64,000 nt of DNA from Ascidiella aspersa (taxonomy: Eukaryota), in contig OZ004613.1 of the NCBI GenBank assembly GCA_963924565.1, positions 13,764,001 to 13,828,000 on the forward strand, written 5' to 3'. The notes below the pieces were generated by a model, which saw only the letters and a program-made list of their open reading frames with translations, was not told where the DNA came from and searched no databases. Both the position numbers and the translations under genes were made by a program. Of the stretch, positions 773 to 64,000 are shown in pieces (position 1 is the stretch's first letter; each line of letters opens with the position of its first letter).

Positions 773-3700
773 GACACTTGCAAGCTCCGGTAAGGATCTA
801 AGAAGCACGTTTTTGCGCGCTCTCGCCCAGCGCGAGGAGGGAAACAGGAGCGGCAAAATGACGGTAAGCGGCGCTTGTTTACTTTTGAAATCTCCTCGAT
901 TGATTGTTACGTCACCGCGCGGTGGCGCAGCCCTACTGCCCGACAGTCGTACCTTGATTGGTCCGAGGGTCATCTTTGCAAGAATGCGTGTTTTTGTTTT
1001 TTTTAATTGGACCATGTGCTTTTATGTGAAGAAACGTAAAGGGCACTAAAGGACGATCTTATGTTTTTAAAATGGTCTCAGGATCTTTATTATTTTGTTT
1101 TTTTAATTTAACTTTACACAATGCTGTACTGTAGAAGTTAGGAGTTACAATACAAAGCGATGCTACTTTTGATTGGCGTTACTATAGACAGGATCGTTGC
1201 CCTACGAACTTAGTAAACGTACAAAAACTATTTCCAATTCAGAAAAGAATACACCTGCTTTACGTAGGTGCTTGAATAAACCCGCAAACCTTGAAAGTAG
1301 CATAAACTAAATTGAATATGTTCTGTTGTTGCACTCCTAATATACGTAAAACAAATTTTCGCCTTAACGCACCTGTACCGTTCATTCCGCTTGGCTGTGC
1401 AGCGTGCAACCGAAATTTTGTTGAGCCAATAAACGCAACCCGCACGCTTGCCCGACTAACAAGTTCAAGGTGTTTGCAGCTGGAACACTGTTCACATTGG
1501 AACCATCGGTTGAACCGCTTCGTTTGAGTGGTCAATTCAATCAGATTAATGGTCGAACCGTCAGACACTTATAGCGCTATACTATAACGTGGCTCTACAG
1601 GTGGTGGAATGTTTACTATAGTGCGTCCGCGGCAATCAAATTATACACGAAACGAAGTGCCGGCTTTACAGCGCGTATCTGACCAGGTACCTAACACAAC
1701 ATCTCGTTTCAATCAGAATATAGGCTGCGTGGCGCCGGCGAAAAGCCCCTTCTTGAACGTGTGGAAATCTTTTAATATGCGTTTAACAAACGTGTGTCAC
1801 TCAAGCCTAAAGCAAGGTTGTATACGTAAAATCATCATTAGTGATAGAGAAGTGTACCACGTAACTTCTGGTTATTTAAAAAAATTATAATCTTTTTGTT
1901 TCACAAATAGGCATGCAAGCAAGTATGCGAGACTTGAATGCAAACTATAGCTAAAAAAACTGTTAACATTATGGCATTTACCTATTTACTTGTCGCGTAT
2001 TAAGGGCGATTGTAATGTTATACAATTTTGGTTTTGTAGAAAGTGTGTCCTGTAAATAGTGTTTGTTTTTACTGTTCTGCAAAGCTAAATATGTTCGAAA
2101 ATCCTTGATTATAGTGATAACCCTAGAGAAAAAAGAAAACAAAACGAAATGAAGTTAGAGATGAGGTGCAGCCAAGCAAATAAAAGTACAACTTGAAACG
2201 GTTGCGAACTAAAGAAAACTTGCCCAGCAAAACAACACGCTCGGACTTCCAAGGGCTCACGTATGCTCGTTAAGCCCGTGTCCGGTCCGGCATATTGGAA
2301 TTACTTGGAGCGATGCGGGTCGCTAATTGCGCGCGCCGCAAAGCTTTCGTCCGCGCACGTACGTAACGGAATTTCGGCGTTTTTTTTCGGTCAAGTTTTA
2401 ATATGAAATATCTGCTCGGTAATTTGTCAACTTCTCTTCGCGACCCTGCCCCGACTTTGACAGCCTAAAGTGATTTGTCAAAAAATGCAATTACAAAAGG
2501 GAGTGGTTTTGCGAAAAACGTCCTAAAAAGGGGCGTATTTTAAAAAATGCACCGATATAGATAAACTGCAACCAGAAAACGAAAATGTTTCATAAAATTC
2601 CAATTTAAAAAGAAGCCATTAAATGAAAATTTAAATCTGTAAAACAAAATCATTTTAAATATGAAATCTGAAAAATACCACCTGGGAAAAGCTGTTTACA
2701 AAACAAGGGTTCGTTAAATGGCATTTGTCTCTGATCCGCCCACTTTGTATCATTTTAAGTCGGGTTAAAATCTTCGTTTCTTTCGGCAGTAGATGTCCGC
2801 TCATTTACTTTAGTAAATGACGGTATATGACTTGATGCTTCCACTTGTTAGATTGGGTTGCCTAATAAGGTAATTTGCCAGCCATTTACAGAATTGCGAT
2901 CTTCAAAGTTCCAACACCAGTAAAAATGCCATAACTTGCAAACGTAACTAGAAAGTAACGCACGTATACACAGTGATTTATTTTATTTTATACACCGCAT
3001 TTTGGACGCTCCTCAATAAACCTAATCTAAATCAGTAAAATATTTTTTTTTTCACTCGGGTGGATTTTTTACCTATAGTGTTCATAGAACTTTTAAGCAT
3101 AACATATATTGTTTTAATAATAATAATATTAATAATAATAAATTAAATTACTCGGAGCTCTGCATTTTATTTATGATTTGCGTTTTTAGCCATAAATGGG
3201 GTGGGTAACCATTCTATAACCGCAGGCCAGTAAACCAGTGCAGTTCCGTTTCGGTCCCCCTCTGAAGGGTCCCAAGGCCAAGTGTCCCCTTCCTGTTTGT
3301 TGTCGCGCACGCGCGCCGCCCCATTGTGACGTCACGCGAGGGGCGAGTAACCCGACCTGGTGCTTGTGTTGTAACGGGCGCCTGTGCAAACCCCAGTGTC
3401 GGACGCAGGGGATCGGGTTACCGTTGGGTGGCGCACCGCCCGCTGCTCTCTCTTGTGTAGGTTTTTGTGGACAGCTGCTGGAACGGGGCAGTGCTTTTGA
3501 CCTTGCCACCGCCAATTGCCTTTTGCCAGCACCAAAAATAACTTCCGGATTTGGATCGGGGTCGCGCGCCGCCTGTTTCCACTTGTTGACTATTTAGTTC
3601 GGGGACTGGTAGAATTTGGTCTTGGTGTCTATTATTTCTACAGCACGGTTGATTTTTTTTAGGCAATTTCGAAGCTGTGATAATAGGAAAAGGTTGCCCG

Positions 3701-6700
3701 ACCCTTTGTTTGAATTATCATAGCTTTTCATACATACCTTATTTTACTGGTCATTTCTTACGCTGTACACCTTATTTTGGTTAAATTTCTGTAGGGGACA
3801 TTTTGCGAGGATTAAACTATGCCTATAGATAATGCGATGAAAAAAACGGCTTGCTGTCCAAACGCGAACTATTCAAAATATACGAAGCTGTACAAGGTCT
3901 CGCCCTTTTACCGTTTCAATAGATCACCGTCGAAACTTCCGGGCAATCGTTTTCGATTCACGACCCGCAACAGATGTCCGTGAATCCTAAAAGTTGACGA
4001 GAGCATATGGTCGCCCTCTTGCAAATCGACTTGCCGACTGATCATTAGGACGATCAAATGCGACCGCCCTTTGGATCGCAAAACGACGCCTCGCCGCAGG
4101 AAACGCTGAGCGTGAGAACTGCGATTTAAACCACGTATCGAATAAGTTAAAGTTTGGTCGATGCTTTCCATTGACAACGCTTAAAATTGGTCGCTTAAAG
4201 TTGGTACTTGCACTCGGTTTTGTTTATAGTTGCGAACTAACGACTTTGAATTTCTCGAGCGCACTAGTGTACCGCGGCACATAGTTTGAGAATCACTTTA
4301 ATTACATTTGTTACATACAAACATCACCAAGAAAAGGAAGTTGAAATATGCACTTTATATATCCAATACGGCTAAAGAAATGCAACGTCAAAGGCAATAC
4401 TGCAGATGTGCACTGTTTAAACAGGCAACGCAAGCCATTTATTAATACTTTAAAAATATCGCGTCTAATTTAAGAATACAAATATTTTTTTCAATGGCAA
4501 CAAAATATTTTCGATAGGAATGATAGACTATGTCAAATATTATTATTATTTAAGTTTAATTGCATCTGTAAAGTTTTTGAGTGACACACCAGCACATATC
4601 GACAAGTACAGTTTAAATCAATCTATGGTCAAAAGTACCTGCTGTTAATTAGGAACAAGTAACTCGTTGCGAACTTTCGTTTCGCACAGCTGTTAGTTTG
4701 ACAGATGTGTGTCACAAGGCGTAAATTATAACATTAAAACGTGCTAAATTTGCGCCTGAGCATAGCACTCGCGAATTACGTAAAAAATGTGTAAAATTCC
4801 TGCCTGTCAATCTGAAATAGCAAAGTCTGCAGAACGCAAAGTACAATTACTTTTCAACTACCAGTGTTAAGAGCTATAATTCCCACCTTATTATCCTACT
4901 ATTTATTACACTGCGTTTTTACGCGCTATACGGGCAAACGACCGTTTTAGTTGAAAACAATATGCAATTTACATCTGAGTATATGCAAGTTTGTATAGTT
5001 CTACAAAATAAATGGGGGGGCCGCACCCAGAGCCGAGTCTAAACCAACAAATCAAAATAGAGTTTATGTAGAAATAAAAAGTCTTGCCAAACAATATTGT
5101 CTTTAGGGCCGTAATCTATTTTATGTTTTCATTGTCCCAGTTAGAACATTCCTTCCAATATGCTCAATTTTGTCAGTCAGATTTGTACCGGGACGTTTTA
5201 AATTTTGCAGTTTCGTGCTGCAATCAGAGCGTATCTAGCACCTATTTGCCAGCACGTGCCAAAGTACATCTCGTCTGATAGACCAATTTAGCCTGCTTTT
5301 TGAGGGCCACTTTGGGTTTACGAGATTGGCCGGGATCGGTGAGTGAAGGCCAAGCGACCTTTCAAATGGCCAATTTTGTGTCAAGTTTACATTGTTGCCT
5401 GTCGCGTTAATTAGCCGGCAGCTTGAGTGTCCCAGCGCCGGGCCTCTATTCCGCGACTTCCCGATTTCTAGAACACTTCACGTTAATCGAATTACGTTTG
5501 TAAGCACAAGCGCACTTTGGACGGGGTCGTGCGTTTTATTGCCCCTCGCCAAATCGAACGTTCAACACATCGTGTAGTTTATTGTTGAACTGTAGGAGAT
5601 ACACGTGTTTCGCAAATTCGCTGCCAAGCCGTCGATCAGAATAGCGCTTTTTGTCTCGTTTTGCCGTTTAAACGAAAAACTTGGTCAACCGCATGATAGA
5701 TCCAAATTGAAATGGCACAAATCGGTAAAATGAAAAATCCCATGGACCCTAAATAAAGCAAAATATAACAAAGCCCATATGGAAGTAGATAACACTTTAA
5801 ACTTTTCGAATATATCTTTATTCATATTTTAATCATGACTGAAATTCACTTCTGTATACTCTAATCCACTACTGTATATAGTTACAGAAGTATAGGCTAT
5901 ATTTTGGGAGACCTTTGAGAAAATTGGAGAAATAGTATTAGAACCTTTAAAACTCCTTAACAAATACTGCACGTGTGTATATATTAATATATTAGAGCCC
6001 TTCCGAAAAGTATTATACTGACAAAAGATTGAGACACACATATAAGTATAGTACTATTAGTCAATATTAATTTTAACTAAAAGGTCAGGTAAAATGCCAA
6101 AGTCTTCAAACATGTAAAGGCTATAAAATTGACCAAGACTTGTTAGAGCGCAATTCATTTACCGAAATCGCATTTCAGTCGATTATCTTCATTCGCGACA
6201 AAAACTCCCGCAACCAAGAGATCTCGGGATACATCGACTTCGCTCATCGCCTAAAGACGGAGGACTTTGAGTCGTACTTCTCCGGGAAGAAGCGCCTTCT
6301 TCCGCGACTATCCGATCTCAGGTTAGCAGAGTCAGCTATTTAGAGATGTCCATTGTCCATGCAGTGATAAGAGAAAAGATTTTTAAGTACCGCTGGTCGT
6401 TTGGTAAAAAAGTTGAAATAGAGCGCTTATGATAAGTCTGTAGTCACTTACACTAATTGCCTATACAAACTGTTGCTGCCAGGTATAATATTAACAATTA
6501 ATTCCTCTGGTAATTGGAATTGTTAACCAACGTCTCGGCAACCTATTCAAATCGCCCCCTTCAGGTTGAATGGGTTAACAATTACCATTACCAGACGAAC
6601 TGTTTTTTAATTATTATCAATTGCCTATAGTGGTAAAACATTCGTTAAACCACCTTCTTTACATGTTGGGAGTATTACCCTTTGGGAGTATTTTACAATG

Positions 6701-8042
6701 TTGTTATATGGGCCTTAATATTTTGTTTTAATTGACTTGACTTATTATCATAAGTTATTTTGAAGAATAATCTGTCTTGGACTTCAGTTATTTAACTAAA
6801 CTGAAATGTTTTAATTGAATAACTTTTTTAAATAAGTGTTTAATTTTCCCCAAAATGTTATACGTAGTATTGTTTCCTTGCTCGATGTATGTTTTGTGTG
6901 TTCGTGAAAAAACTGTTACTCAAGATTAAAATGATTACAAACTTTTACTTTTAAATCATGCAAATGGTTTGAAACTAAGGATGACTCGTTTAGAGTTCGT
7001 AGCTCTGTTGTTGGGCGCCAATTTTAATGGTCGCTTTTACCCTAAAGCCTTAAACCCATCTGTATCCAGCTTCTACAATTGGGAGACACAGACTTCGACT
7101 TCGAACCCGACTCCCAACTACCAGGTGATTGCTGAGAACGCGTCCGGTCTGCTCTTCAAGAATAAGCGCGACCGGAAGATACTCAACGTCGACCCAAAGG
7201 TATTGTGTTTTTGAACTACTTGAATACGCCAGGCTTAATTTCGACATGGTTCTTTTTTGTGTTAGGATGTCATTTGTCCCATTTATTGCCGATGACTTAT
7301 GTGTGTTTGCTGTCCACTCTGTTTTACGCGCCATTGGGAGAAAATGCGAGGCTATAAAAAAGGGATGTTTTATCTGTAGAAAAGGTTTAAACTTGCATGA
7401 AAAACACTTGGCTTGGTGGATAAAAAATAATATTTTCTCGAAGGCTTGTTTTGCCATTTTTGCATCACAGTGAAATTACAAAAAATACTCATACAATGGT
7501 TTTGCAATGAGTTTACGACACTTATATCGTTCACACAAACGTCACAAACATTGTTTTTAGGCTTTGGTTTTACTTCTATTCTAAAGATATTTGAACTAGT
7601 TAAGGAGTGGTTTAGCTGTCGTTTATACAATGAGACTTCTTTTGGACATATTTCATTACAATTAAACCTAATAAAATTAAAGCTAATAACTTTTAACATT
7701 ACACGAATAAGCTAATCGTGCTATTGTTTAAAAATACCTTTAACTCAGACGCAGTAAATGACGTACGTATATACAAGGACTATAGTATTTTGGTAAGAAC
7801 TACAAAGATTAACCCCTGTTGTTCTGATTGTACTCGCACGAAATCGAGGTCGAAGTAAAGCAATAAACTTTAACTGAAATAAAGTCAAACCGGACCCCGG
7901 GTCAGATTCTTATCTGTCATGTATTTGACCCCCCTGATTTCAGGCGACGACCCCCGGGGATAATTCAACCCGCACCCCAATCGACACCGACCAGTACGTC
8001 CAGGTGGTGGTCTACGATCACATTACAAGAAGAAAGACCTAA
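773..8042 (+). CDS. CFAP299: Cilia- and flagella-associated protein 299 (C4orf22 orthologue), 5'-partial; coding exons 773-863, 6179-6321, 7070-7199, 7944-8042
   Basis: All junctions are GT-AG with matching phases (91/143/130/99 nt). Spliced peptide [153 protein letters not shown] matches the CFAP299 C-terminal two-thirds as I recall it. Upstream exons lie left of the window. Confidence 0.93.
3196..3708. mobile_element. Degenerate hAT-like MITE in CFAP299 intron
   Basis: Left GGGGTGGGTAACC and right AGGTTGCCCGACCC resemble CAGGGGTGGGCAACC-type TIRs. GC-rich interior, no TSD. Confidence 0.45.
6506..6595. repeat. Inverted repeat / small foldback element in CFAP299 intron
   Basis: TCTGGTAATTGGAATTGTTAACC (6506-6528) pairs with GGTTAACAATTACCATTACCAGA (6573-6595) at 21/23. 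Confidence 0.75.
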
Positions 8043-11000
8043 TTGCATTTTGCCTTTTGTCACGTCGAACTTCGTCTAACTCCGCTCGTATAACTGTGTT
8101 CTGTGTTGTATCTGTCACTGACCGCAATTTAAGCACATTGTTTCATTTCGTGTTGTGTGTTATTCCTGTATAACAATATACTTAACGTGCAAATTCAACG
8201 CTGAACTTTGGCCACGTAACCAGCTGCAAGGGCTTTGGCCCACAATAATTTCTTATTAGAAAATAGATGGCAGATTTTTTTTTTGTAAGAAAGAGTGAAC
8301 TATGTCAAACTAAACGCTAGAAAGCACTGACCTTTATGATATCAAATTGCGTTTGTCCATTTTTTTAAAGCACAGTTGTTTGTACTAAAAAAAGTTTTTT
8401 AGAAATTAAATATTCTGACTCGTTTTAGTTTTGGCCTTTTGCACAATCAGCAATAATGGAGGGAGCATTGAGAAAAATTTCACGACACACAAAACATACG
8501 TCTGGCAACAAAGTTATATATTTGCTTTATACTGGAGCTTTAAATGGCATCAAGGGAGATATACTTTAAAAGGAAATTCACCGAACTGTCGTCAGTATGA
8601 ACCAAAAGCAGCCGCCCAACCCTGCCTTTCATCACGTTTCGCAACTTTTAGAACGCATTCAAACACAACGACGCAGAAATAGATACAGAGGCATTGGCAC
8701 AACATTTGTGCAAAGCCATCAAACGAATATTTTCCACCGTTTCAGCGGCTGAAAATAGCCCTTTATGGCTCGTTTGGCCTTGTCGATAACACAACACGAT
8801 ACGAAGGCGTATAGCGGTGTCCGCGAAGAAGTAACGATTTGCTTCATTTGCACTGCAGGAAAATATCATCGATTCAGTAGCGACTCGAATCTTGTTTTAA
8901 AGATAATGTCACTCGTTCTCTTGTGAGTGCCGGGTTGTTAAAAGGGCGGGCCTGCTGAAACAAAGTAAGTTCCCCCGCTCAACTGATGCAATTGAATGAG
9001 GCGAGAAGGCAACGACGACAGGTACGCTTCGGACCGGTTGAGCCTGTCGCGAATAAAACCCAACCTACGATGGGAAACGGACAGTAATTCCGCGGAGGCA
9101 GGCGAGCGCAAAGTCAACTCCAAATCGAACAACACCCGGATTAGGGCGCGCTAAAACTGCGGCTCTTTCCTGGCGCTAACTGATCGGCGGGTTGGAATGA
9201 ACGCTAAAGAAAAAGAAAACAGTGATTTTTTCCTGTGTTTCTTTTGGCCTCGGCATCGGGACCCTGTCCGTGTCCAGCAGGCGAGGCCCTAAGTGACTTC
9301 CGTTCTAAAGGGCGATATTGGTTTCAGGCCTTGTTCGTTGTTGACGGACAAGGTTATTTCAGCCGCGCAGGTCTGCTTGGCCGCGATACGGTTGAAAGCG
9401 CCTTTTTCGCGACCAAAAGCTGTGTAGTAGTGGCTTCCAGCCTTTTTTGACTGCGTATAATGTACTGACTTTTTCCGCGTGCCCTTCGTTTTGCAGTGAA
9501 CTATTTTTCTGAAATTTTAGCCTGATGATTAAAACCTTTCAAAAACTTGATAAAAAACTAATTTTCGGCATACCTGCGGGTTAAGGATCACAGAATTTGA
9601 TGTGGCAAAGAGAAAATATAACTTCCGCAATATTATACACTTATCCGCAATAATATACACGTGCGACCCCTTTAACTTTCGGAGAAACGTGATTTCTGCA
9701 ACAAGCAGCATTTGATTCCTTGGACTTAATATGTTGAAAATTACGAAAAAAAGGTAATATAGAGGCCTGTTTGGCTTTCTATGTGGTCTTGTTAAAAATG
9801 TTACATTCGAAATTATTCACAGTATCCATATTTACAAGAACAGATAGGGCCATTTAATCGTATTGGTAATTAATTCACACAAAGCTACTTTTAGATTTCC
9901 TTTTTCATGAAACATGAAAGTTACTCGTTATAGAATCACGATTCCTAATACACAAGCTAGGCTATCAAACGTTGGTTGTAGACCAAAAAACGAATTGTCG
10001 AACATCCTGGGAACCCAATCGACAGGCCAAGCTATAGGCAGCCCCAGATCAGTTAATATCATTTCACACATAAGAGATGCAGAAAAACGGCTAAATTAAG
10101 CCATTTCTAAATGTCTTACAGGTTTCCTTTCTAGAGCACATCCGGTGGTCCGATGCATCAATATGCCGTCATGTTACCAATGGGCTGCATTGAGTGACGC
10201 GAGCAAACACGTTGGGTTCTCGATACCATAGCAACACCACACAGAACCAGCAACGAGCGACAGCATAGGCACAAACCCTGGCGAATGGAACTCATGCGAG
10301 ATAGTCTACTGCGCAAATCACTCTTGTTTTGACACCCGATCGCGTTGACCAAACACGCGGGGGATTTGGGGCGCGCGCAGGGGCAAGGATTAGGCCTCCA
10401 AGAGGCACAAAAACGGGGCTCGATCCCGATCGACAAAGATCGAGGCCCACTTGACACCCAAAGGGTGAACGCAAGTCAAAATCGCATGCTGACTCTCATG
10501 CTATCGGTGTGGTAGCAGTTGGCGTATACGTCAGCATTTTTACTCGCCAAACTTTAATCGTTGTTGTCCGTTTCGTAATAGCCTTAGGGGCTATGACCCC
10601 GATCGAACCGAATGGCATTTAAAATGCGCAACTCGTTTTGCTCCCTTGCCACAAGACGACCGTACGCGACGAAATAAGGTCGATTTGCTTTAAGTTAACG
10701 ACTGGCAACTGACGTGCTTTAGAGGCGCTGACCCCGACAAGAAACCAGATACCACGCATTGCGCGTCTTCAAATTTGATGGCAGCCCTTGACAAAACAGT
10801 CAACAAATGCATTGTTGCTGCAGGCAAACATGGCCTCGTAAAGGCAACAAACTGGAAACTAGGGATTTGCACCTCGGTAATCGCACACCGTTTTGCACTG
10901 GCCCGTCCAATTAAAGCTCTTGGGGAAACCGGTTTGCGTTGCATTGCTCTGTCAGCACGGACTCGAACTTGGTTGAGGAAGCGAAAAAAAACCCAGAAAA

Positions 11001-12620
11001 TATTGCAACCGAACACTTGTTATGACTAACAAAAATACGGTACGACTGTAGAAAAAAAATGAAAAAATGGGTTGAATATTTAAATTTGTTGGGGTGCTCA
11101 TTTATATAAGTTTGAGTTTTGAGTTTAATCATTATTGAGTTTAATGATTGTTAAAGTAAGTTCCCTAATTATTCTCGATTTCAGCAACTCTCAACAACGT
11201 TGCAAGCAGTTCTATTTGCCCACGCCCTTATTTGCAAGGCAAGATAAGGTTTGAAGTATCTATGTTATGTTCGTTTTTTAAGGTATAATGTCAGTAAAGG
11301 AGGTCGTACAAAATAGTAAGAAATACGCGGGCTATTTAGTGTACGTAAGCCTTAAGCACGAATTATTTTTTTCAAATGTAAGGTATAAATTCCCTTATCC
11401 CTCTCGATATCCCACAGATACCATATATTATTGTAGTGCAATCATGTAAAAACAAATGATTTAGAAACTTTGTAAGGTAGTGTGTTCATTTTTTTGTTTT
11501 GGAACAAAAAATTAAGCCTTTAAAACACAACGGAAAGGATAAATGTTCCATGGACAAAATCTTTATATCGACAAATCGTTGTACAAGACACCAGCTCAAG
11601 GGTTACAGGTGTACTGCCGCAAAATTAAAAATTAAGAGACTCTCGTTCAGTGATAATGCGAGGTGCTCGCGATGCGAACCATCCGTGGCGCGACTTTTGC
11701 GTAAACATTGGAAAATCAGCTCAACAGAAGTGTGGGGTCCGCAGTCAGCCGCGAGCGCAGATATTTAGACTGGAAAACCTCGGCTGGCAGCCGGCGTGGC
11801 CGAAGAAGCAGCTGTGTGCACAGCGAAGCTCGCTGACGGATGTCGGGATCCTATCTTCCGCGCGTGTATAAGGGGTACGATTGTTTTGCCTATAAGTCAC
11901 CTCGCGACAGCCCGTGTTTGCGTCAGAGCCAATTCACCGCGTCCAGTGAAGCCTGTACTCGAGTGCATCCGCTTCGTCACAGCAATTTTTTTTCTTCAGT
12001 GATGTGGTAAACGTTTTGGGCGGCAACGAACCCAAGCCTGAGATTGCTTGTGTGTGTGTGAGCGTTTGGGGAACGCAAGGGTGGGCGAACTTTTTTCAAT
12101 CCGCAAGCTTTCACTTTAAATTTGAACGCACCACACAAATCTTCCACCCAATTTTAGGCCCTTAAATTATGACCATTTATGCATATTATAGCAGTGATAT
12201 GCGTAGTTTATTAATGTTAAAAATATTTATATAATTGAATACGGACAAAAAACAGTTGTAAAGGAAGGGATTTTACAGCATAAAAAAACAAAAATTCCAT
12301 ACTTTGTTGACATTTTTGAATATAAGGATAGATTTAACTGGTTATTTATAAGTGGAATATTAAAATCTAGGAATACTGTTAGTAGTTGAAAAAAAAACAT
12401 AAAGAGAAAATAAACATAAGTAGGCTACCTTTAATTCTTTTCTTTTTCAGACATGTTTTTTCTTGTGTTATATCTGGGGTGTATAGTGCACCACTTGAAA
12501 TCTTGCGTTGTGCCTTTTTATATAAAGATCATGGAGGCTTCCTCTCACTTCATTATTTCATCTAGCGATGTGACAATGTTGTCGTTTGCGCCTTGGTTTG
12601 GCCAACTCGTTGTAGGTGCT

Positions 12621-12663
12621 CATACGTATGCGTGCACGTATGCGCACGTGCGTGTGTGTGTGC
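12621..12663. repeat. 43-nt perfect alternating pyrimidine-purine tract
   Basis: CATACGTATGCGTGCACGTATGCGCACGTGCGTGTGTGTGTGC. Confidence 0.85.
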
Positions 12664-26911: not shown

Positions 26912-27199
26912 CAGTCAACCGCGGCACCCTGGGGTGCCATTTCTAATGCTCAAGGGTGCCGAGAGATATTTGATAATCTTTAAGAATCTGATTTTTGCTC
27001 ATCTCTTACAAATCTTTGTGTAAGATTATAGATCAATGAATCCAATTGTAACTTCCTATGCGATGTGTAGAGTTGATGTGTGTTGTTCCAGTTCCATTTA
27101 TAGTGACATTTCAGCAAAATACTGAAGGAAAATTCCGGTTGGGGTGCCGAAAATCTACTTATTATTTTTGAGGGGTGCCGTAAGCCATAAAAGGTTGAG
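26912..27199. mobile_element. Eroded hAT-like MITE
   Basis: Left TCAACCGCGGCACCCTGGGGTGCC, repeated GGGTGCCG motifs and right AAAAGGTTGAGA. Termini truncated. Confidence 0.45.
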
Positions 27200-30046: not shown

Positions 30047-33000
30047 ATGCTGTTTTTCCGTCGACACGCCCTCATCGTTTCCATCTGCCTGCTGCTGGCG
30101 CTGCTAGTGGCTTGCGGAACCGCTCGGCGAAATCGAAGCGGCGGCAAGCGTCGGCGGCAAAACCTCGCCAAACCGAAGCCGCAAGCTGGCGAGGCAGCGG
30201 TCGGGACTTCCGCGGGAAATCGGACCTCAGATCCCGCCGAATCGAATGCGAGCCTACTCTCCGCCCTGTTGAAGACGGACGCCGCGGCGACGGAGCCGAA
30301 CGCCGACCAACCTCCCGTAGTGAAGCCGAAAAAGTCCCGCCGAAAGCGGAAAAGAGGCAAAAAAGGCGTAAAGGGAAAGCGCAAGGGAAAGAAGCGCGGC
30401 GGCAAACGGAAGAGGAAGAACAAAAAGTCCGGAGGAGCCGGGAGCGCCGGAAAGTTGCGCGCCACCATGAAGAAAATCTTCGGTTTCGATCACATGATGT
30501 CGCCGCGTCCGATTTGGAGCAAGAGGAGCAGACTGGATGCGGAGGTGGAAGAGGAAGGTGAAGAGAAGGAGGACCTAGCTCTTCATCCTCCTGAGTTCAT
30601 GCTGGAGCTCTACCGAATCCTGTCACAGGACCGCAGCATGATGAACTACCATTTTGAGTCCCAAGGAAACACAGTGCGGAGCTTCTTCTCGGTTGCAGGT
30701 AAGATTATAAATCAGATTTGCTTTCGTCGCCGATTCTGTTTTCGTAGGTTTTTTTGCAGTACACCGCTTTTTCAAGCATATAGAACTCAGCATTTAAAGC
30801 GGGTGTTGGGTACATACTTAACCGGAATACGGGTCAGTTATCCCCTATGTCTATTGCCGCACAATACTTTTCAATATATAACAAATACACGCACCTGTTC
30901 ATAGAAAAGGTCATATTAGCATCACACGTGTTAATCGGACTAAATAGGGAGCATTTTATTGGAATTGTTAAACAACTATCTTGTTCGATTTGAACCCTTG
31001 TCGACAAAAAAAATTAGGCAACGTTGAGTAACGTTTTTAAAGTAAAGTATCTTAAATTAATAACTAAGTTGTCTTTAACTTTTGCCCAAACGTGCTTAGT
31101 CATTTCTGGAAATAGCTTTTCTGCCTTAAAAATGCAAAATATAGGTTGCCAAAATACAAAGCCAGCATTTTAATCAGTGTTTTGACATAAAATTTGCGTA
31201 TGAGTATGGCTTAATAAGTGCAACCCTGCAAATAAAGCTAAGCATATGTTATTTTGCTTTGTTTTCTGTTTTCACGTTCTCATCGGTGATAGACACTGGA
31301 CCACAAGCGGATAGATGATTTACGTTACGAAAACGGCACGCACTCCAAAGGGCATGTTGACCTGTTTTATCGAATGCCATTTGTTGTTGTGCTGAGCTAT
31401 AGGAATTTGTTGATTAAATAGCGAGGACCCATTTTGCCTTGACCAGATGGTAAATCGACGTTTTGTTGTTTTATAACACACGTCGAAAAATTGTAAGTTG
31501 TTGGGATAGGGCTTCTTGGAGAGTTCGCAAAACATAAGAAAATCTATTTTGAAAAAATTTTAAATTGATTAAACATGGTCCTTCACGTAAAACACGTAAG
31601 AGTGCTTAACTTCAGATTATCGCAAAAAAATTAACCGATCTTCCCTAAACAAAAAGGCAAATTTAAGACCCCGTACGAACGGCCATTGACGACGTACGGT
31701 CATACCATTTAAACGCCTTCTCCAGTTGAATGCCGACGCAAACCAATTACAGTGAAAAAAAACGCAAAAATGCGGTGGTTTGCGAAAATCTGCCCACTCT
31801 ATGGATGCACATAGACCAAATACAGTCGGCGGTGCGTGCAGCGACGGAGCGTATATAAACGCACGGTTGAAAATCGATGCAAAACAACCATGTTTTCGGG
31901 CCAACGCGCCCCAACCTCATTTGGGTTCAAGTCATTGCATTGCTTAACGCCAAACGATAGGTATGGCGAAGATTGTGAATTGCGCAGGTGAAACCGCGAC
32001 GTTTGGCGGAGCGCGGAAGGCGACCAGGCGCGGCGAACCGCGACCGCTTTACGCACGTCGTTGTCGAAGTTTTCGCAGCAGCTCCTTTCATGTCGAAGTC
32101 AGCGATGTCCGATGCTTTGAATTTTATTCCAACACCCATATCCGACAATTTAAGAAAACCGATCTAATAAAATATAACGTTACTGTCGTCTCTAATAGGG
32201 TAACGCTTTTCGCGTTGTTAAGCCAACAGGTTACTAAATTGCTTGGAATTTTATAAAAACATCTATTGTGACAAATTATCCAAAAAAATAGAAATCTTCA
32301 AAACAAGGCAATCAATGGATGATATGCTTAAATTATTTGGTATTCGATCTTGCAGATACTACTTTTCTATCGGGCTAATCGATGCTACCACTGGCACAAA
32401 ACATCGCCTGTATGATGTGGTGTTTATGTACATCTCTAGCCAAAACCGTGCCCTGGCTTCGATTGAACAATCACAAAGATGCAAGGCGTAAGGGCCGGAA
32501 GCTATATTTTGCCCGCTGCTGTTTGTCGTACAGCAGCAGTCGAAACCTCAGCGCAGCTGTCGATCGTGTAGTTGAGCGACAGGTGTGCGACAAATTACCG
32601 CGTCAAATCTCGCCCGTCTTGGTTGTGACCTCTCTTGCCCAACCAGTTGACACTTTATACATCGAGAAGGGTTCGAAACTCTAGTGATCCCGGCTCGTGG
32701 CTGCATGGGTGACGTTAGGGGTGTACCACGTAGTAATTTTCGCCAAATAGGACCTTTTAAAGGAAACGGCCTCAAACTAAAATTCTCTTAAAAAGCCCCG
32801 ACGAATATCGTTAAAAGGGCACGCGCAGTTTATTTATCTCTAAATCAATAGAACTATGCTTTCGTATGGTTAACTGTACAATTAAAATTGGCTTCTTTAC
32901 AACACTAAACAGACTGTTCGTTTTCCAAACAACGACGATTAAACCTAATTTTTGTAATTAAAAAAAACGATGCTGTCGGTTTGTCTGGACAGATATATTT

Positions 33001-36000
33001 CAAGTAGCTTATGGTTGAACTTAAATGGTACCTTGTTCGTGCAATCATTTGTACATTACATTACGGCAGGAGATATTGCAAAAATGACGCCGAAGCTTGA
33101 TCACACAGGCGCTACCACAAGCCCAGCCAACCTTTGCACAGCCAAAGTCGTCCCCATTTGGAAGCAAACTTTGCGTTATTTCCTAACGCCGGTAAATGTT
33201 TGTTTGCCGAGGCCAATCGACCGCAGTTCGCACTATACGGACAGAAAGGGCGCACGGCCCATTTGCCCAGGCGCGACGCTAGGAGCTCTGGAAGTAATAA
33301 ACAGGCGCTTTTACGTCGCCCGGAAGCTTGTAAACCCCGTCGCGGCGGCATTACAAGGAGCAAACGGGAACGCGTGGCCCTGGAATTCGCCCGAGGTCCG
33401 TGCGGCCGCGATAACATCGGCACCTGAGCTAACAGCAGAAAGCGTGCCGTCCTGTTGTCCCCACGAAACGCCCCATTGCCCCGCTAGGCCAGGGGTGCTG
33501 AAACTCAACACGGGAGCACCGACGCTAGTTTCATTAATCTTTTCAACGCTCGATTCGCGTGTTGCGATCAGGTCCCTTTTCGAATGCCGTCTGTTTCATC
33601 CAGCTACGATTAATTGATTTGCGTGTTGAATGCATTCTGTCGTATAGGCGTTGGCCATTCGCGTTTGGTTAGAAGGGGAAATTAAAAGGATTTGCCAAAA
33701 AATCGCACGTTCAAGTTCACTTAAGTATATACTTACGCACTTCTTGGCATTGATCTATGTAGGAAGCTTACGCAAAAATTTTGTACGTTAATCCTATACG
33801 TGACCAATTTTTAATTGTGATTTTGTCCTCATTTAAAAGTCAAGTATATATTTTACACAGAAAATTTAGCTCAGCCTGGGTTGTTTCATCCGAAATTGCA
33901 CAATAAACGTCTGACACGTTAAAGCTCCAGAAAACCACGACCGGCGGTGACGAGAAACTCGCAAATTAACCGTGTCAGAAAGCAAAGGGCTAGGGTGGGC
34001 AAAAACAGCTTGGAAATTAGCGACGTTGCAGTTGGCTAAATGCGCGCTCCGATTCTATAAATAGCGGAAAAGGGCCGGCAAATTGGCATTGAACTTTCGC
34101 CTGGTCTTGCTAGCCGTCCGCTGCGGCTTTGGAATGCCGCTTATCCCGGCGATGGCAGGATGATGGCTTCGAATTAAATCCAGATTTCCGTTGCCATTAG
34201 CGCACTTAACATTTTGCCGAATCGGCGTCTGATGCCCGAGAGTCGCTTTTTCTGTCCAAAGCGAAACCGCAGCGATCGGAAATGGCGGACGGCTTTTCTT
34301 GCGATTTCCCGTGGCTGCGGTGCTGCCAAGTTTTTGCCCATGATTGCCAAGCGACTGATCTTGATTTGGTAGCAACTGTAATTGCCGTCGATTTACGCCA
34401 AAAGACCACGGGCAACGGCACGACATTTTTTCGCCTTTGACCAATTGGGTAGCAAAAAATCGGCCCCTGGTGCCACGAAATCTGGCATAGCTAATTCGCA
34501 AAGAGTTAACAGTACACGTAAATGTAAAGCCCGTTCCCAAAACAGCTCTCAAAATTTAGGCTGTAGTGTATATAGTCGCACTTCTACTATTATTTCAAGA
34601 TTATTAATGTGTTTGCCACAGGAAGCAATTTACATTTGCAACAAAACCTTAACCACGACACGTTTAACCGATCAACTAACAACTGCACAATAAGTTCAAT
34701 CTGGCACAGCACAAAGTGTACAGCCGAGTTCAGGTCGATTCACGGTGCAAAAACAGCTCTTCTTATTTCTAAACCGCGTAAACTATGCGGCGGAACGCGG
34801 GTAGGCGCAATACAGAAAGGCATCGCGCGCATATACACACCTCAGCTACTGAACAGCGGCCTTTGATCAGCCAGCGGCAGCAGCAGCTCCTAGATATCGC
34901 TCGACGGGCAAATTGCGCCCTTTCAGGCGACGACGTGCAACGCGCGTTTGATTTCCAGCGGTCGGCCGCGCGTTGAGTGACAGGCGACTGTCGACTTGCA
35001 AATCGCAGCCCATGCACCTGTGGTCCGGGCGTTCAGGCCGTCCGTCAGTCCGTCCACGCTGGCAGACGGGCGCGTGCTTTGCAGGCTTTTCTCTTTCGAA
35101 AGGCGCGAGATCTCGGGATTAGCCGGGCGCTTTTGTGTGTCGGAACCGCTATAGTTGCCGCAAAAGTGGAGTTGAAGTACCGAACGCGTATGACGTCATC
35201 GTATCAGAAATACTTTTCTGGGCAACAGTCGGTGTTGCCTGAGTTGTAAGGCGTCACTGATACAGCTGATTCTACATCAATATAAATAAATTTTATTTTA
35301 CTTAGGCCCCTGTTAACCATCGATATTTCCTCGCGCTTGTTTTGAGGATTTGGTGAAACTTTATGGCTTAAAAAAGGCTTGAAGCACCATTTAAGCAGCC
35401 ACCAACGTATTTTGGTCGATGCTTTAGTGGTAAAACACAAACCGCATCTGGAAGCCGCTTGTTTTTTACTGTAAGGCGTAGGAATCAACGAAAATCGGCG
35501 ATTTCCGATCGATAAGACCCCACAGATGAACAAACGGAGTGACTTGACACTCCAAGCGCGAAAACACTAATCCTTAATTCCCACTTAGTCGCCTCGCGAA
35601 AGCGCCAATTTGCCGCGCGCCCGCCTGTTGACACAGCCCGCTAATCTGCCAGTAGAATAGGCCAGGACTCGAAAAGCCTCGAAAACCGCACATTTCGCAG
35701 CTCGGACAGATTAGGCGGCTTTTTGCGAGCGTGCGCGCGAAAACGTCTTTACCACACAGCGGCGTTGGAGTCACCGCGAAGACTATACGACCCTTCACTG
35801 GCAAATTGCGGGCTTGGTGAGCCTCGAAACTAATCTGAGCTGCTCCATGTCAGCGTACACAGCACACTCCGTCGCGCACCTGTCCATTCTGCGCTAAGAA
35901 CCCTGATATTCGTTGTGCCAAAATGAATCCGTTACTCAGAAGCGAAGTGTTACAATTACAAAACGCGGTTGGGAGAATTAGCAATGTCAAGACATAAAAT

Positions 36001-39000
36001 CTGCTATTTTTTGTTTAAAATTTCGAGGATTAAACGCTTCCGAATGAAAGACCCGTACCAAACGTTCGTGATCTCTTGGCTTCGTGGTATTATTTGCGGC
36101 ACACGGTTAATTGAGTTGACATGCGGTGTAATAAAGGGCACATGTCGCACCGTAAGCCGCCCTTTGAAAGGTTTATCCGACATCAGTTTGTTGAAGTATA
36201 GGTCAGAAATCCCAGCGTGTTTATCGTATAAATTCGCCTGGTGTAACATAATTCACTCTCATCAATTTTAGCAACAAAACTTTCTCAGCCCACTTAAAAA
36301 AAATGTTTGTGATGGAGATGCATCTGGTTTTTGATTCATATATTCGTACACTCTTATATACAATCAATAATATTTCAGTCAGTTTTGCTATAGTTGCGCC
36401 TGAAATGCCGAGTTTTTTTGGTTCGTGATTAATACCATATAGTTTATATAGACTATAACCATAGTAACTACGATTACACTTTTAGCACAATGTTTTCAAA
36501 GACCTGTGTCTGCAATTGTGAGACAGCATAACCTGTAATTTGCAGCTGACCCATCCTAAATCGTCTAGTCATATTCATTTTAGCTATACTTTTAAATGAT
36601 GATTATATGACCTTTGTGCAAATCTTTTAAACGCCAACGACAACCATATAACCTAATTTGGCAGCAATGGCGTCAGAAATCGTACGCTTTCCTATTATTC
36701 TTTATGCACATTTAAGAAGTCTTACCTTACACGTCGCATTCAATCGCAGTAAACCGCCCCGACGGCCGACGGAAAGGCATGGGAAGACCAATCACGATCA
36801 TCTCGACCGACGCGCCTCCGTCCTCCGAACTTGATCCTTCCTCTCTCGGAGGAGCATCCACCAGCTACCGGAGTCAAGCGATGAAGGTTTTTGCTTTCAA
36901 CGTCACAACAATACCGAAAGACGAAGCGGTTCTGTCTGCCGAGCTGAGGCTGGATAGCGACGCGCAAGGCAGCGGTACCAGGCGAGCGGGCAACGCTTCT
37001 GATTGGACGGTTTTCGTGGGCGTGTACCGACTAACGGAAGGCGAAGGACCAGGATCACCCAAGGTGAGAGTCGATTTGGACTAAAATGCATGGCCCAAAG
37101 AGAAACGATACGGTTGACAACATTGAACGAAAAAAACATATTACCGTTTACAGTCTTTTTTATAATTCGTTTTCGATCATTAACATACCATAATTATCGA
37201 AACGTATGATAGCCAATGATACGTTGTTACGGGAACACGCTAGAATGGCATTTTATCGTGGTAAATCCACATTGATTTTACTCGCGATCGAGAATCAAAA
37301 GCTGACATTTTGACAAGCCCAACAGCCCAAGCACGCGCCACAAAAGATAACCATAGCATCCTGTTCATTTTAAGGTTCACAGACGCGTTGGGCAGTCGGT
37401 TAAACTTATCCCCGGGTCCTCGTCCTTCTGGACCAACCCGGGCCTGGGCGAGGCGGTGGCGGCCAGCACCCAGCCGGGCCACATCCTGATCGCTCGGTTC
37501 CACGACCGCCCGGACCTATCGCGAACTGCCCGCGACTTGGCCGCGTCCCAAAATCCCCAGACGGTGTTCGGCGGTGTCCCAACCCTGCCGGAATCCTTTA
37601 CAGTGGCCGACTCGGAACGGCCTAAAAGGAACAGTGGTGGCCGGCCTACACCGAGTTCTAACAGGCCCGACGCTGACTTCGATTTGCCGCCGCGTATTCC
37701 CTTCCTCATCGTCTATTGCAACGACTCCAAGTCCGTTCCGCGTCCCACTCCGGCCGCTCGTCTCGCCTACCAAAGCCTGCTTACCGACTCCAGAAAACGT
37801 CGCTCGCATCGACGGGTAAGTCTTTTGGGTTTAGCATCGTTTGGATTAACTTTGTTTGGAAAATGATTTCATGCGATTCGAGAACAGAAATATGGCTATC
37901 AAAAAACTTAAACATCGATTATTGCTTTATTTCCTTGCTTCAAGATTTCTAACCTGAAAATGATTACCATTTGTGAAGCTTCTATAGATTTAGTTTCCAC
38001 AACCTATATATAGGGCTTTCTTTGTTCAACTTTGGAACATGCCTTACCGAAATAAAATTACTTATACATTACCTCAACCGTTTTCAAAATAAATGCGATA
38101 ATCCCCGCACCTTTAATAAACAATAGTTGGCAGCAATTGGCCAGAAGACTTCATTTAAGGCTAAACCAGTGGTATTCCTGTACGTTCAAGATTGACCAGT
38201 ATCGCGAAATAATAGTCCTTAAACTCGCAGGTGCGCCGATCAGTGAAGCAAAGAGCTTCAGAAAACGAAGGCGAAAATGACACGACGGCAGAAAACGAAT
38301 TTCCTGAACACGCAGGCAGCAGTCAGCAAACTGTGCAAGGTGCGGACGCTAGTGAATCCAGCAGCCTCAGCAATCGGCGAACGGAGCCGCCGGCCAGCAG
38401 CGTGATGGCCACCCTTAAGCCGCGCAAGGCTTCGAAGCGGCGGGGCAGGAAGTCGAAATCTAAGTCCAAGTCGCGCCGTTGCAAGCGACGAGGCAAAAAG
38501 GGAAAGAAGCGGTGCAAGCCGAAAAAGTCGACGACGCCCGAAACGGAGCCGAACGCGTCGTCAGGCGCTTGTGGGCGCAAGGAAATGCTGGTCGATTTCC
38601 AGGAGCTCGGCTGGGAGCACTGGATTGTAGCCCCGCACACCATGCAGCTCTACTACTGCACAGGAGGCTGTGAGCACGGCTCCATGCAGGTCGGTGCACT
38701 TGCGTTGTGTGCGCTTGTATTGTTTGGTGTTTAATTTTGCCAATCGACTGCGTTGGCCGAACGTGCCGCATCGACGGTTCCAAGGTTGGCCGGCGAACCG
38801 CCTATAGTTGCAACTGTATAGGCTGACGAGGGGTGACGGTCGCGTGCAAATGAGAATGTGGGCGCCGTGGCGAAATTGCTCTTGATTGCGCCAGTTCCTC
38901 GAATCACTGCGCAAACCATAGCCAGGGAGTTCTGTTTAGGGCACTGAGGGCGTTTACACACCACGGGAGAACTTTGCGGGGCAGAAAGCTAGACAAGTTT

Positions 39001-40286
39001 CATGGTAGCGCTTTAAAAGTCCACGTTAAGCTCAACTAAAAACCACGACATAATAGTATACGAGGTTACTTAGCAAGTATAGAACTTAATTTGTCGACAC
39101 AACTGTTAGATAGAAAAGAGCGTGCGGGGTGTTCATTGTATCTCGTGAATATTTTAGCAAAAAATGACGTGGCGTATTATTGTTAGTATATAAATTAAGA
39201 TCCGCTCAAACTGTAATTTCACAGGTTTCTAATTCTATGATCATTTTTAAAAGGTAAAGTGCGGTTATTTTTTTTTCGATCGCAGCAGTACAACCCTTTT
39301 TCCCTAAATGTCACGAAATTCCCACAGGCTCGCCAAAGCACAAAATCGCGGCGCTATAGTTTACGGTGTAAGCCTATTTCCAGCAAAATACATCACCATG
39401 TCAAATAAACAACCTTGAAAAAAAACACGTCGACTGAAAGTAAATCGACTCCCAAAGAACGCGACGCAAAACCTCGGCGATCCCATTGCTATTTCCATTA
39501 GCCGACGCACCAACCCGCACCTGTGGGTATTCCAAAGCGCAGGCCCCAATTTGTTTACATGTCGCCACGTTACGCAACTAAAACGGGCGCGGCCGATCTG
39601 TTAACGTTCCAGCAGTCCGTTCGAGTCACGGCGAAACGTCCTCTCAGCGCAAAATTTGAGCAGAAAAGAAGGCGGGATTTCAAAGTCAAGGATTTCTGAA
39701 TGTCAACAAGGCGGGAGTGGCGGACGTGACATTAGAAGAAGCGCCTTTCGACTGTCAGTTTAAAACCACCCGCGAATTATTTGTAAAGGGGTGAATCTAA
39801 AATAAGGTTTATCAGTTGGGATGCAGTTTGGTTGCTTTATAGGCTATCTCATATGATTAAACATGCGTTTAGATTTTAGCAAATATATTGGTGAAAACGG
39901 GGGGTAGTTAGGGAAGGCCGCAATGCCACCACACTCGCCCTATCGACTTAAACGAAAAATGTGTTGCATAAATTAGGATTTAGTCTAAAAAGAGTTTTAT
40001 CAAGGAAGAGTAAACCTTAACGACGAGTGACCATCTTTAAATAAAGATAACAACTCAACAAGTAAGTTACAAGTGTTCTACCCTGATTTTCAAATTACAG
40101 GATCCGACTAATCACGCCATCATCCAGTCGCTAATCAAGTCGCTGGGCTTCAACACTGAAGTGTCCAACCCGTGCTGCGTTCCCAGCAAGCTGTCGCCGG
40201 TCAGCATGCTCTACTTCGACGAGAGCGAACTCTTGGTGCTCAAGTCCTATCCGGACATGGAGGTCAACTCGTGCGCCTGCCGCTGA
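30047..40286 (+). CDS. BMP3: BMP3/GDF10-family TGF-beta ligand precursor, 683 aa; exons 30047-30698, 36750-37063, 37375-37815, 38231-38689, 40101-40286
   Basis: Signal peptide (LIVSICLLLALLVACGTA). Prodomain motifs HPPEFMLELY, GNTVRSF, FAFNVTTIPKDEAVLSAELRL and PFLIVY. Furin site RVRR/S across exons 3/4. Seven-Cys knot CGRKEMLVDFQELGWEHWIVAP..YYCTGGC..TNHAIIQSLIKSLG..PCCVPSKLSPVSMLYFDE..VLKSYPDMEVNSCACR*. The LKxYPxMxVxSCACR end, an intron inside the mature domain and the CFAP299 neighbour favour BMP3/GDF10 over BMP2/4 or ADMP. Phases 1,0,0,0 are consistent. Confidence 0.88.
35568..35835. promoter_or_regulatory. Candidate enhancer: cluster of K50-homeodomain (Otx/Pitx-type) TAATC/GATTA sites in BMP3 intron 1
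   Basis: TAATC at 35568, 35642 and 35831, GATTA at 35709, all in CTAATC(C/T) context inside a CpG-rich block. Confidence 0.4.
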
Positions 40287-63933: not shown

Positions 63934-64000
63934 CTGCAACACAAAACAAAGAGCCTTGCGATCTTTCGGGGCATAGAACCGTTTTCAAAATCACACAAAA

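What the first reader, a model, noticed from the sequence alone, without database searches (positions are those of the whole stretch)
773..40286. CFAP299-BMP3 tandem pair: vertebrate microsynteny kept in a probable tunicate genome
Seen: CFAP299 lies directly upstream of a BMP3-type gene on the same strand, with no gene I can find between them. Established: human 4q21 has FGF5-CFAP299(C4orf22)-BMP3 in this order and orientation. Inference: tunicate gene order is usually heavily rearranged, so retention suggests a genomic regulatory block in which BMP3 (or FGF) enhancers sit in CFAP299 introns. The longest CFAP299 intron here (864-6178) has CpG-rich non-coding blocks (e.g. ~2230-2460, ~5290-5560) like those near BMP3.
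Basis: partly seen in the sequence, partly recalled or inferred. Interest (0 to 1): 0.72.

Follow-up and report, generated by a model that had tools for sequence, protein, structure and literature searches.

The report
Ancient CFAP299–Bmp3 gene pair in tunicates
In this tunicate (sea squirt) genome the cilia gene CFAP299 lies directly upstream of the growth-factor gene Bmp3, as it does in Ciona and vertebrates and probably also close to it in an annelid worm, likely because DNA switches for Bmp3 sit inside the cilia gene's long introns.

Summary
The pair is real. CFAP299 (233 aa, six exons, two left of the window) lies 22 kb upstream of a five-exon, 694-aa Bmp3 orthologue on the same strand, with no gene found between. 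The genome is a tunicate (cellulose synthase with GH6 domain). Ciona robusta has the same adjacent, same-strand pair (KY21.Chr12.898/897). Scaffold lengths put both genes on one scaffold in 5 of 5 invertebrates that could be checked, including a 116-kb scaffold of the annelid Lamellibrachia, so the pair is probably bilaterian rather than vertebrate. FGF is not linked here; CFAP96 sits head-to-head with CFAP299 instead. Corrections: the longest intron is intron 2 (13.9 kb), not 864-6178, and the CpG-rich blocks are not diagnostic, because CpG is abundant across the locus. A CpG-rich domain does begin sharply inside intron 2 and runs through Bmp3. A genomic regulatory block is the best explanation (about 0.6): two of its four published predictions are met, and conserved elements and enhancer activity could not be tested. 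The tunicate match belongs to a longer collinear block, which weakens the argument from tunicates. This is a new member of a known kind; it may already stand in published pair lists that I could not read.

The parts
1..772 (+). 3' end of CFAP299 intron 2 (13,949 bp in all; exon 1, 108 coding nt, and exon 2, 131 nt, lie 14.2 and 13.3 kb left of the window)
773..863 (+). CFAP299 exon 3 (91 nt)
   Evidence: boundaries match vertebrate isoform breakpoints
864..6178 (+). CFAP299 intron 3 (5,315 bp), second-longest intron; candidate Bmp3 enhancer territory (untested); 2150-3650 is single-copy apart from one 58-bp match
6179..6321 (+). CFAP299 exon 4 (143 nt)
   Evidence: Pfam DUF4464 E 9.5e-19; 94% identical to Ciona CFAP299
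7070..7199 (+). CFAP299 exon 5 (130 nt)
   Evidence: 29 RNA reads at position 7145
7944..8042 (+). CFAP299 exon 6, coding part with stop; some transcript ends near 8125
   Evidence: 31 RNA reads at position 7961 and molecule ends at 8125
8043..30046 (.). 22-kb stretch without a detected gene, upstream of Bmp3; Fox-type TRTTTRY (83 vs 48 expected) and CAGCTG (16 vs 3) enriched; repeats at about 19380-19540 and 26920-27200
30047..30698 (+). Bmp3 exon 1 (signal peptide, basic tract, start of prodomain); predicted
30699..36716 (+). Bmp3 intron 1 (6.0 kb), densest in CpG-rich blocks
36717..37063 (+). Bmp3 exon 2 (prodomain); predicted
   Evidence: Pfam TGFb_propeptide E 2.3e-5
37375..37815 (+). Bmp3 exon 3 (prodomain); predicted
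   Evidence: aligns with Phallusia and Ciona Bmp3
38231..38689 (+). Bmp3 exon 4 (basic tract, first half of the cystine knot); predicted
   Evidence: Pfam TGF_beta E 2.7e-11
40101..40286 (+). Bmp3 exon 5 (second half of the cystine knot, stop)
   Evidence: best PDB match BMP3 2qcq 68.9 bits, BMP2 63.6
44300..64000 (-). 3' part of SPT6, the downstream neighbour; not part of the conserved pair (2 Mb from Bmp3 in Ciona); left end approximate
   Evidence: Pfam HHH_7, SH2_2, HHH_9

Best explanation
CFAP299 lies directly upstream of a true Bmp3 orthologue here, in Ciona and in vertebrates, the link probably dates from the bilaterian ancestor, and it is likely kept because Bmp3 enhancers sit in CFAP299 introns 2 and 3 (a genomic regulatory block). 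Shown: gene identities, order and strand here; adjacency in Ciona and in turtle, human and zebrafish (published tables and text); two long introns among three short ones; a CpG-rich domain that starts 1.2 kb inside intron 2 and runs through Bmp3; CFAP299 transcribed without Bmp3 in one RNA sample. Inferred: same scaffold in two annelids, a hemichordate and amphioxus (from equal scaffold lengths); CFAP299 driven separately from an RFX-type promoter shared with CFAP96; intronic elements looping to the Bmp3 promoter 24-42 kb away, so that a break between the genes would cut Bmp3 from them. FGF5 is not part of the tunicate unit.
For: Orthology: prodomain matches Phallusia BMP3 (E 1.5e-83) and the Ciona protein Q4H3U5 (E 1e-60), next family member E 2e-5; tree places it with BMP3/GDF10 at 87/89; AU tests reject ADMP (p 0.019) and BMP2/4 (p 0.021). 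Ciona: KY21.Chr12.898 CFAP299 and .897 Bmp3, both minus strand, 4.2 kb apart. Vertebrates: Bmp3-Cfap299-Fgf5-Prdm8b-Antxr2 in turtle, human, zebrafish. Equal longest-scaffold lengths for CFAP299 and a BMP3-clade protein in 5 of 5 species present in both lists: Lamellibrachia 115,805; Owenia 38,876,441; Glandiceps 18,482,504; B. belcheri 24,254,466; Ciona 9,879,317; the GDF10 paralogue of Galeopterus differs, as expected. Introns 2 and 3 are 13.9 and 5.3 kb, the other three 0.74-0.78 kb; Ciona CFAP299 has the highest span/transcript ratio (7.3) of 27 table rows seen (my arithmetic); yak intronic SNPs span 351 kb. CpG o/e 0.38-0.66 over 6 kb up to the start of intron 2, then about 1.2 (0.92-1.49) through Bmp3. 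Tested intron blocks are single-copy. RNA covers CFAP299 exons, none on Bmp3.
Against: No conserved non-coding element or enhancer was shown; no related genome was available. Fox motifs, the known Ciona Bmp3 inputs (Foxa.a and Foxd), are enriched in the intergenic stretch (z 5.3) but not in intron 2 (z 1.2) or intron 3 (z 0.8). The 6-mer likeness of the introns to the intergenic stretch (r 0.078 per 5 kb) is only slightly above SPT6 introns (0.06) and below one control region (0.113). A second individual differs more in intron 3 (50 changes in 3,990 bp) than in intergenic pieces (46 in 8,230) and lacks 77 bp of a GC-rich block. About five upstream genes are collinear with Ciona too, so the tunicate match is not pair-specific. 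Three of the five scaffold matches are whole chromosomes and show linkage only. The turtle paper found only Rasgef1b shared next to chicken Bmp3. The CpG domain has no sharp right edge (SPT6 3' part o/e 1.12). The tree support is unstarred, and amphioxus BMP3 scores this gene (71.7 + 46.1 bits) level with the ADMP locus (117.7).
Confidence: 0.6

Rival explanations
1. The adjacency is ancestral but kept without constraint: no breakpoint has yet fallen between the two genes, and the long introns reflect local sequence gain.
For: TMEFF-like, trypsin, orphan membrane gene, CFAP299 and Bmp3 run in the same order here and in Ciona. No sign of reduced variation in intron 3. No motif signal specific to the introns.
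Against: All other neighbours differ between tunicates and vertebrates; Ciona keeps only 54 of 595 ancient pairs and human-to-other-lineage microsynteny is about 1-5%; the pair also shares a 116-kb annelid scaffold; a break lies right after Bmp3 between this genome and Ciona, and in newt the locus broke on the Fgf5 side (Bmp3 is not named in that text).
Confidence: 0.22
2. The link is functional but not through intronic enhancers: Bmp3 control lies in the 22-kb intergenic stretch and its own first intron, and CFAP299 is held because the 3' end of its unit bounds that domain or shares elements with it.
For: Fox and CAGCTG enrichment is strongest in the intergenic stretch; CpG-rich blocks are densest in Bmp3 intron 1; mouse Bmp3 has a sufficient 0.8-kb promoter in cell lines.
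Against: The CpG-rich domain begins inside intron 2, not after exon 6; only introns 2 and 3 are long; tandem orientation, 22-kb distance and unequal RNA levels do not fit co-regulation.
Confidence: 0.15
3. The ligand is not Bmp3 but a divergent ADMP or BMP2/4-type gene, so the match with vertebrates is accidental.
For: Tree support 87/89 is unstarred and the branch is long; the amphioxus BMP3 search ties with the ADMP locus.
Against: AU tests; whole-length match to Phallusia BMP3 and to the Ciona protein that nests with vertebrate BMP3/GDF10; ADMP and BMP2/4 are other loci in this genome; Ciona names the gene beside CFAP299 Bmp3.
Confidence: 0.03

Closest known systems
Ancient genomic regulatory blocks among conserved ancestral microsyntenic pairs, e.g. 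Isl-Scaper, Otx-Ehbp1, Fgf20-Efha2 (Irimia et al. 2012, PMC3514665; outline and parts 2-4 of 7 read, supplements not readable)
   Same: A developmental gene beside an unrelated gene with long introns, kept across distant phyla; over half of the pairs kept by tunicates are of this type.
   Different: Those cases have tested enhancers; this one has none. This pair is not named in the main text (0 hits for Bmp or C4orf); it may stand in the unseen supplementary lists.
Vertebrate ANTXR2-PRDM8-FGF5-CFAP299-BMP3 block (PMC9928969, passages; PMC11872487, passages)
   Same: CFAP299 next to BMP3; CFAP299 intron positions agree.
   Different: No FGF is linked here; CFAP96 stands upstream and SPT6 downstream. 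Same-strand orientation in human is recalled, not from a call.
Pinhead-Admp pair (PMC6989304, passages)
   Same: A BMP-family ligand gene with a fixed upstream neighbour, kept from arthropods to vertebrates including Ciona.
   Different: Both partners there are signalling genes with mutually exclusive expression and a tested cis mechanism; here the partner is a ciliary gene and the mechanism is untested.
Ciona robusta Bmp3 locus (KY21.Chr12.897/898; PMC10962819 supplementary file 2, rows; PMC8189585, passages)
   Same: Same pair, order and strand; similar upstream genes.
   Different: About five times more compact (gap 4.2 kb, CFAP299 span 6 kb); MRPS24 and LIN9 follow Bmp3 instead of SPT6.

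Membership tests
BMP3/GDF10 ligands | Secreted precursor with TGF-beta prodomain and seven-cysteine knot | tested here: met
   (splicing predicted, not read from RNA)
BMP3/GDF10 ligands | Mature domain groups with BMP3/GDF10, not ADMP or BMP2/4 | tested here: met
   87/89, unstarred (36 rows); AU p 0.019 and 0.021; the first 116-row tree left it unresolved; profile scores 139.7 vs 124.3 and 123.6
BMP3/GDF10 ligands | Orthology to named tunicate Bmp3 over the prodomain | tested here: met
   Phallusia E 1.5e-83, Ciona E 1e-60
BMP3/GDF10 ligands | Reciprocal best hit from amphioxus BMP3 in this genome | tested here: inconclusive
   two exons sum to 117.8 bits, ADMP locus 117.7
CFAP299 (C4orf22) | DUF4464, about 233 aa, single copy, shared intron positions | tested here: met
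   vertebrate isoforms and fragments break at residues 80, 110/111, 157/158, 201/202 (indirect, no vertebrate genome was read)
Tunicate genome | Cellulose synthase with a GH6 domain | tested here: met
   PF03552 and PF01341 matches 3 kb apart on one strand of C5
Genomic regulatory block (Irimia 2012 predictions) | One developmental gene plus an unrelated bystander | tested here: met
Genomic regulatory block (Irimia 2012 predictions) | [quoted passage not shown] | tested here: met
   13.9 and 5.3 kb vs 0.74-0.78 kb; Ciona ratio highest of 27 rows seen, rows not random
Genomic regulatory block (Irimia 2012 predictions) | Conserved non-coding elements in bystander introns | not testable with these tools
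   no related genome; run X3 proved near-identical; within-species differences show no constraint but are few
Genomic regulatory block (Irimia 2012 predictions) | Bystander introns hold enhancers that act on the target | not testable with these tools
   motif and 6-mer tests inconclusive
Conserved ancestral microsyntenic pair | [quoted passage not shown] | tested here: inconclusive
   adjacent in vertebrates and tunicates; within 116 kb in one annelid; same chromosome only in Owenia, Glandiceps, amphioxus
Vertebrate FGF5-CFAP299-BMP3 triple | FGF gene upstream of CFAP299 | tested here: not met
   0 of 12 FGF matches on C7; none credible in 244 kb, best E 0.006; CFAP96 upstream
Co-regulated head-to-head pair | 5'-5' orientation, short gap, co-expression | tested here: not met
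   tandem, 22 kb, only CFAP299 seen in RNA run X7; the orientation and gap fit CFAP96-CFAP299 instead

The most novel reading that the evidence does not exclude
CFAP299-Bmp3 is a regulatory block inherited from the last common ancestor of bilaterians and kept in annelids, hemichordates, amphioxus, tunicates and vertebrates. CFAP299 is a split-duty gene: its 5' end belongs to an RFX-driven ciliary unit shared with CFAP96, while from intron 2 onward it is Bmp3's enhancer field, visible as a sharp CpG boundary. FGF5 joined or left the block separately. Ciona compresses the whole field into about 10 kb, where it can be dissected completely, and the result would point to BMP3 rather than FGF5 as the old target of elements inside the large vertebrate CFAP299 introns.
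Probability: 0.3. Interest if true: 0.62.

Novelty: new member of a known kind. Interest (0 to 1): 0.42.

Why it matters
Few gene pairs survive in tunicates, and those that do are enriched for regulatory blocks. This pair names a concrete, small target (two introns of a 6-kb Ciona gene) for finding long-range Bmp3 enhancers, which are poorly known in any animal. It also bears on reading trait signals in the vertebrate FGF5-CFAP299-BMP3 region, usually credited to FGF5: the older link appears to be with BMP3. The class of phenomenon is well known, so a specialist would find it useful rather than startling.

Tried and rejected
Word-indexed protein search with Bmp3 exon 5 found nothing. No RNA holder was listed for the Bmp3 stretch; raw RNA run X7 (about 6% read) had no Bmp3 reads, so its splicing is not shown, and at 80% likeness repeats crowded the CFAP299 joints out of the table. 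Run X3 (organism B) is near-identical low-depth DNA, useless for conserved elements. Metagenome scan: 79 loci, 17 scored best as BMP3-type, none held CFAP299, but most are under 10 kb, so this is no evidence. FGF subtypes could not be assigned from 4 PDB searches. The 116-row tree was unresolved; 50 rows without a full mature domain were dropped, then 36 rows were picked. CpG-island logic was rejected because CpG o/e is near or above 1 across the window. A read-through or operon reading was rejected (22-kb gap, no reads between). Literature: searches found no paper on this pair outside vertebrates; supplements of PMC3514665 could not be read; PMC6952182 (12 of 14 files), PMC4729200 and PMC13588380 held nothing on it; PMC8851819 file 4 (cut) lists starfish BMP3 in a 'Bilateria novel' block whose partners I could not see. 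Ciona gene KY21.Chr12.899 was not in the stored parts of the tables searched, so whether CFAP96 is there is open.
Full report
1. Observation. The window is C7:13,764,001-13,828,000 of a 308.6-Mb genome. A cellulose-synthase match and a GH6 match lie 3 kb apart on one strand of C5, the tunicate CesA arrangement (family knowledge recalled). CFAP299 has six exons of 108, 131, 91, 143, 130 and 99 coding bases, giving 233 aa; exons 1-2 lie left of the window. It is single-copy and 94% identical to the named Ciona, Styela and Clavelina proteins. Vertebrate isoforms and fragments break at the same residues as four of its introns, which supports the 91/143/130 match indirectly. RNA run X7 covers exons 5 and 6 on the + strand. 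Downstream, five GT-AG exons (30047-40286) give an open 694-aa TGF-beta precursor; its splicing is predicted, since X7 had no reads there.

2. The ligand is Bmp3. Exon 5 matches BMP3 best in PDB (68.9 bits; BMP2 63.6). Of 150 representatives, 30 were looked up by name. The prodomain matches Phallusia BMP3 at E 1.5e-83 and Ciona Q4H3U5 at E 1e-60; the next family member scores E 2e-5. A 116-row tree left it unresolved. A 36-row tree puts it with BMP3/GDF10 at 87/89, unstarred, and nests the Ciona protein among chordate BMP3/GDF10. AU tests reject placing it with ADMP (p 0.019) or BMP2/4 (p 0.021) and do not reject a clade of the three tunicate proteins (p 0.10). ADMP-, BMP2/4-, BMP5-8-, GDF1- and Nodal-like genes lie elsewhere in the genome (the labels ADMP, BMP2/4, BMP5-8 and Nodal are recalled from sequence type). 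Against: amphioxus BMP3 scores this gene level with the ADMP locus.

3. Synteny. In Ciona robusta, KY21.Chr12.898 (CFAP299, 6,470,776-6,476,815) and .897 (Bmp3, 6,461,746-6,466,531) are consecutive, both on the minus strand, CFAP299 upstream, 4.2 kb apart (PMC10962819 supplementary file 2, rows seen). In turtle, human and zebrafish the block Bmp3-Cfap299-Fgf5-Prdm8b-Antxr2 is reported; in chicken only Rasgef1b was shared (PMC9928969, passages). Newt lost Fgf5 with a 58-Mb gap between Prdm8 and Cfap299 (PMC11872487, passages). The protein tools print the length of the scaffold that holds each protein. Six species appear in both the CFAP299 list (120 of 301 hits shown) and the named ligand lists. 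In 5 of 5 with a BMP3-clade protein the lengths are equal: Lamellibrachia satsuma 115,805; Owenia 38,876,441; Glandiceps 18,482,504; Branchiostoma belcheri 24,254,466; Ciona 9,879,317. The sixth, Galeopterus, has the GDF10 paralogue and differs. All five ligands score best on a BMP3 profile. Equal length is indirect evidence of one scaffold; only the annelid case bounds the distance (116 kb), and order and strand are unknown. The pair is thus probably older than chordates.

4. What is not shared. No FGF match lies on C7 (12 matches at 7 loci), and the genome's own FGF exons find nothing credible in 244 kb around the pair; a very divergent FGF could be missed. Upstream stands CFAP96, head-to-head, ATGs about 2.06 kb apart. 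Downstream stands SPT6, which in Ciona is 2 Mb away; there MRPS24 and LIN9 follow Bmp3. Upstream, however, this genome has a Kazal/EGF membrane gene (my reading of the exons; no Pfam hit), a trypsin gene and an orphan membrane gene, and Ciona has a TMEFF-like gene (.903), an HGFAC-like protease (.901) and .900, whose 1,243-nt transcript equals the record length of the orphan's homologue P0162. These orthologies are inferred. The tunicate-to-tunicate match is therefore part of a longer collinear block and is not separate proof of constraint on the pair. The informative contrasts are tunicate-vertebrate and chordate-annelid, where only this pair is seen to be shared.

5. Mechanism. Irimia et al. 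(PMC3514665; parts 2-4 of 7 read) give four predictions for a regulatory block. Developmental gene plus bystander: met. Long bystander introns: met; introns 2 and 3 are 13,949 and 5,315 bp, the others 744-776 bp; Ciona CFAP299 has the highest span/transcript ratio among 27 rows seen (my arithmetic, non-random rows); yak intronic SNPs span 351 kb (PMC13608417, passages). Conserved elements and enhancer activity: not testable here. Indirect signs are mixed. For: CpG o/e is 0.38-0.66 with TpG/CpA excess over the CFAP96 5' half, the shared promoter and CFAP299 exons 1-2, then steps to about 1.2 some 1.2 kb into intron 2 and stays there through Bmp3; I read this as a methylated ciliary unit giving way to an unmethylated developmental domain (inference from recalled tunicate mosaic methylation). 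Tested GC-rich intron blocks are single-copy. CAGCTG is enriched in introns 2-3 and the intergenic stretch but not in controls (5/2.0, 3/0.4, 16/3.0 against 4/2.3 and 4/3.9; one of 8 motifs tried). CFAP299 is transcribed without Bmp3 in one sample. Against: Fox sites, the known inputs of Ciona Bmp3 (PMC8189585, passages), are enriched only in the intergenic stretch; the unbiased 6-mer test does not single out the introns; a second individual shows no reduced variation in intron 3 and lacks 77 bp of one GC-rich block; the domain's right edge is not sharp. In mouse, known Fgf5 enhancers lie 29-58 kb downstream of its start and act on Fgf5 only, and one Hi-C set puts Fgf5, Cfap299 and Bmp3 in one domain (10.1101/2020.05.06.080564, section 5 read); the mouse Bmp3 promoter study does not mention enhancers or synteny (PMC3579780, passages). 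I put the regulatory block at 0.6, unconstrained retention at 0.22, a link without intronic enhancers at 0.15 and wrong orthology at 0.03.

6. Known or new. It works like Isl-Scaper or Otx-Ehbp1 and resembles Pinhead-Admp (PMC6989304, passages) in tying a BMP ligand to a fixed neighbour. Membership among regulatory blocks is unproven, with two of four features untested. Seven searches found no account of the pair outside vertebrates, but the pair lists of PMC3514665 could not be read, and a cut table of PMC8851819 places starfish BMP3 in a 'Bilateria novel' block with unseen partners; either may already hold it. PMC7331169 (passages) added only the camelid ANTXR2-PRDM8-FGF5-C4orf22 block. Earlier scan notes held nothing on the pair.

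7. Verdict. New member of a known kind; interest 0.42.

Noticed in passing
L002:3750-5810 (about 16.2 to 14.2 kb left of the window): CFAP96 (Pfam PF15239) lies head-to-head with CFAP299, start codons about 2.06 kb apart, with four X-box-like sites between them (up to 2 mismatches; 3 by a looser pattern against 1.4 expected, not significant). Two ciliary genes may share an RFX-type promoter; whether Ciona KY21.Chr12.899 is CFAP96 is open.
   Followed up: partly
L002:8000 (about 12 kb left of the window): Sharp step in CpG o/e from 0.4-0.7 to about 1.2 inside CFAP299 intron 2, a candidate methylation boundary.
   Followed up: partly
window 52922-53649 (+): LDL-receptor class A repeats (Pfam E 4e-8) inside an SPT6 intron on the opposite strand, spread over two reading frames; a 653-aa intronless LDLa frame lies at L016:1334-3292. 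Possibly a nested gene or decayed copy.
   Followed up: partly
L033 and L035 (G000:C1:31.22 and 31.25 Mb): A BMP2/4-like gene and a GDF1/univin-like gene lie 30 kb apart on the same strand, recalling the known BMP2/4-univin tandem (recalled).
   Followed up: no
L002:7551-7625 (-): Single tRNA-like Rfam match (45 bits) inside CFAP299 intron 2, in a stretch that is repeated nearby; may be a tRNA-derived repeat.
   Followed up: no
L004:3559-4926 (+): Orphan membrane-protein gene without a Pfam family; 3 homologues, all from unnamed records; probably the counterpart of Ciona KY21.Chr12.900.
   Followed up: partly
window 3331-3407: A second individual (run X2) has 3 bases in place of these 77 bases in the most GC-rich block of intron 3.
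   Followed up: no
window 30047-30470 and 38420-38530: The Bmp3 precursor has two long Lys/Arg tracts, shared with Phallusia and Ciona Bmp3; the N-terminal one is absent from the amphioxus and vertebrate rows aligned. They may bind matrix and limit spread (inference).
   Followed up: no
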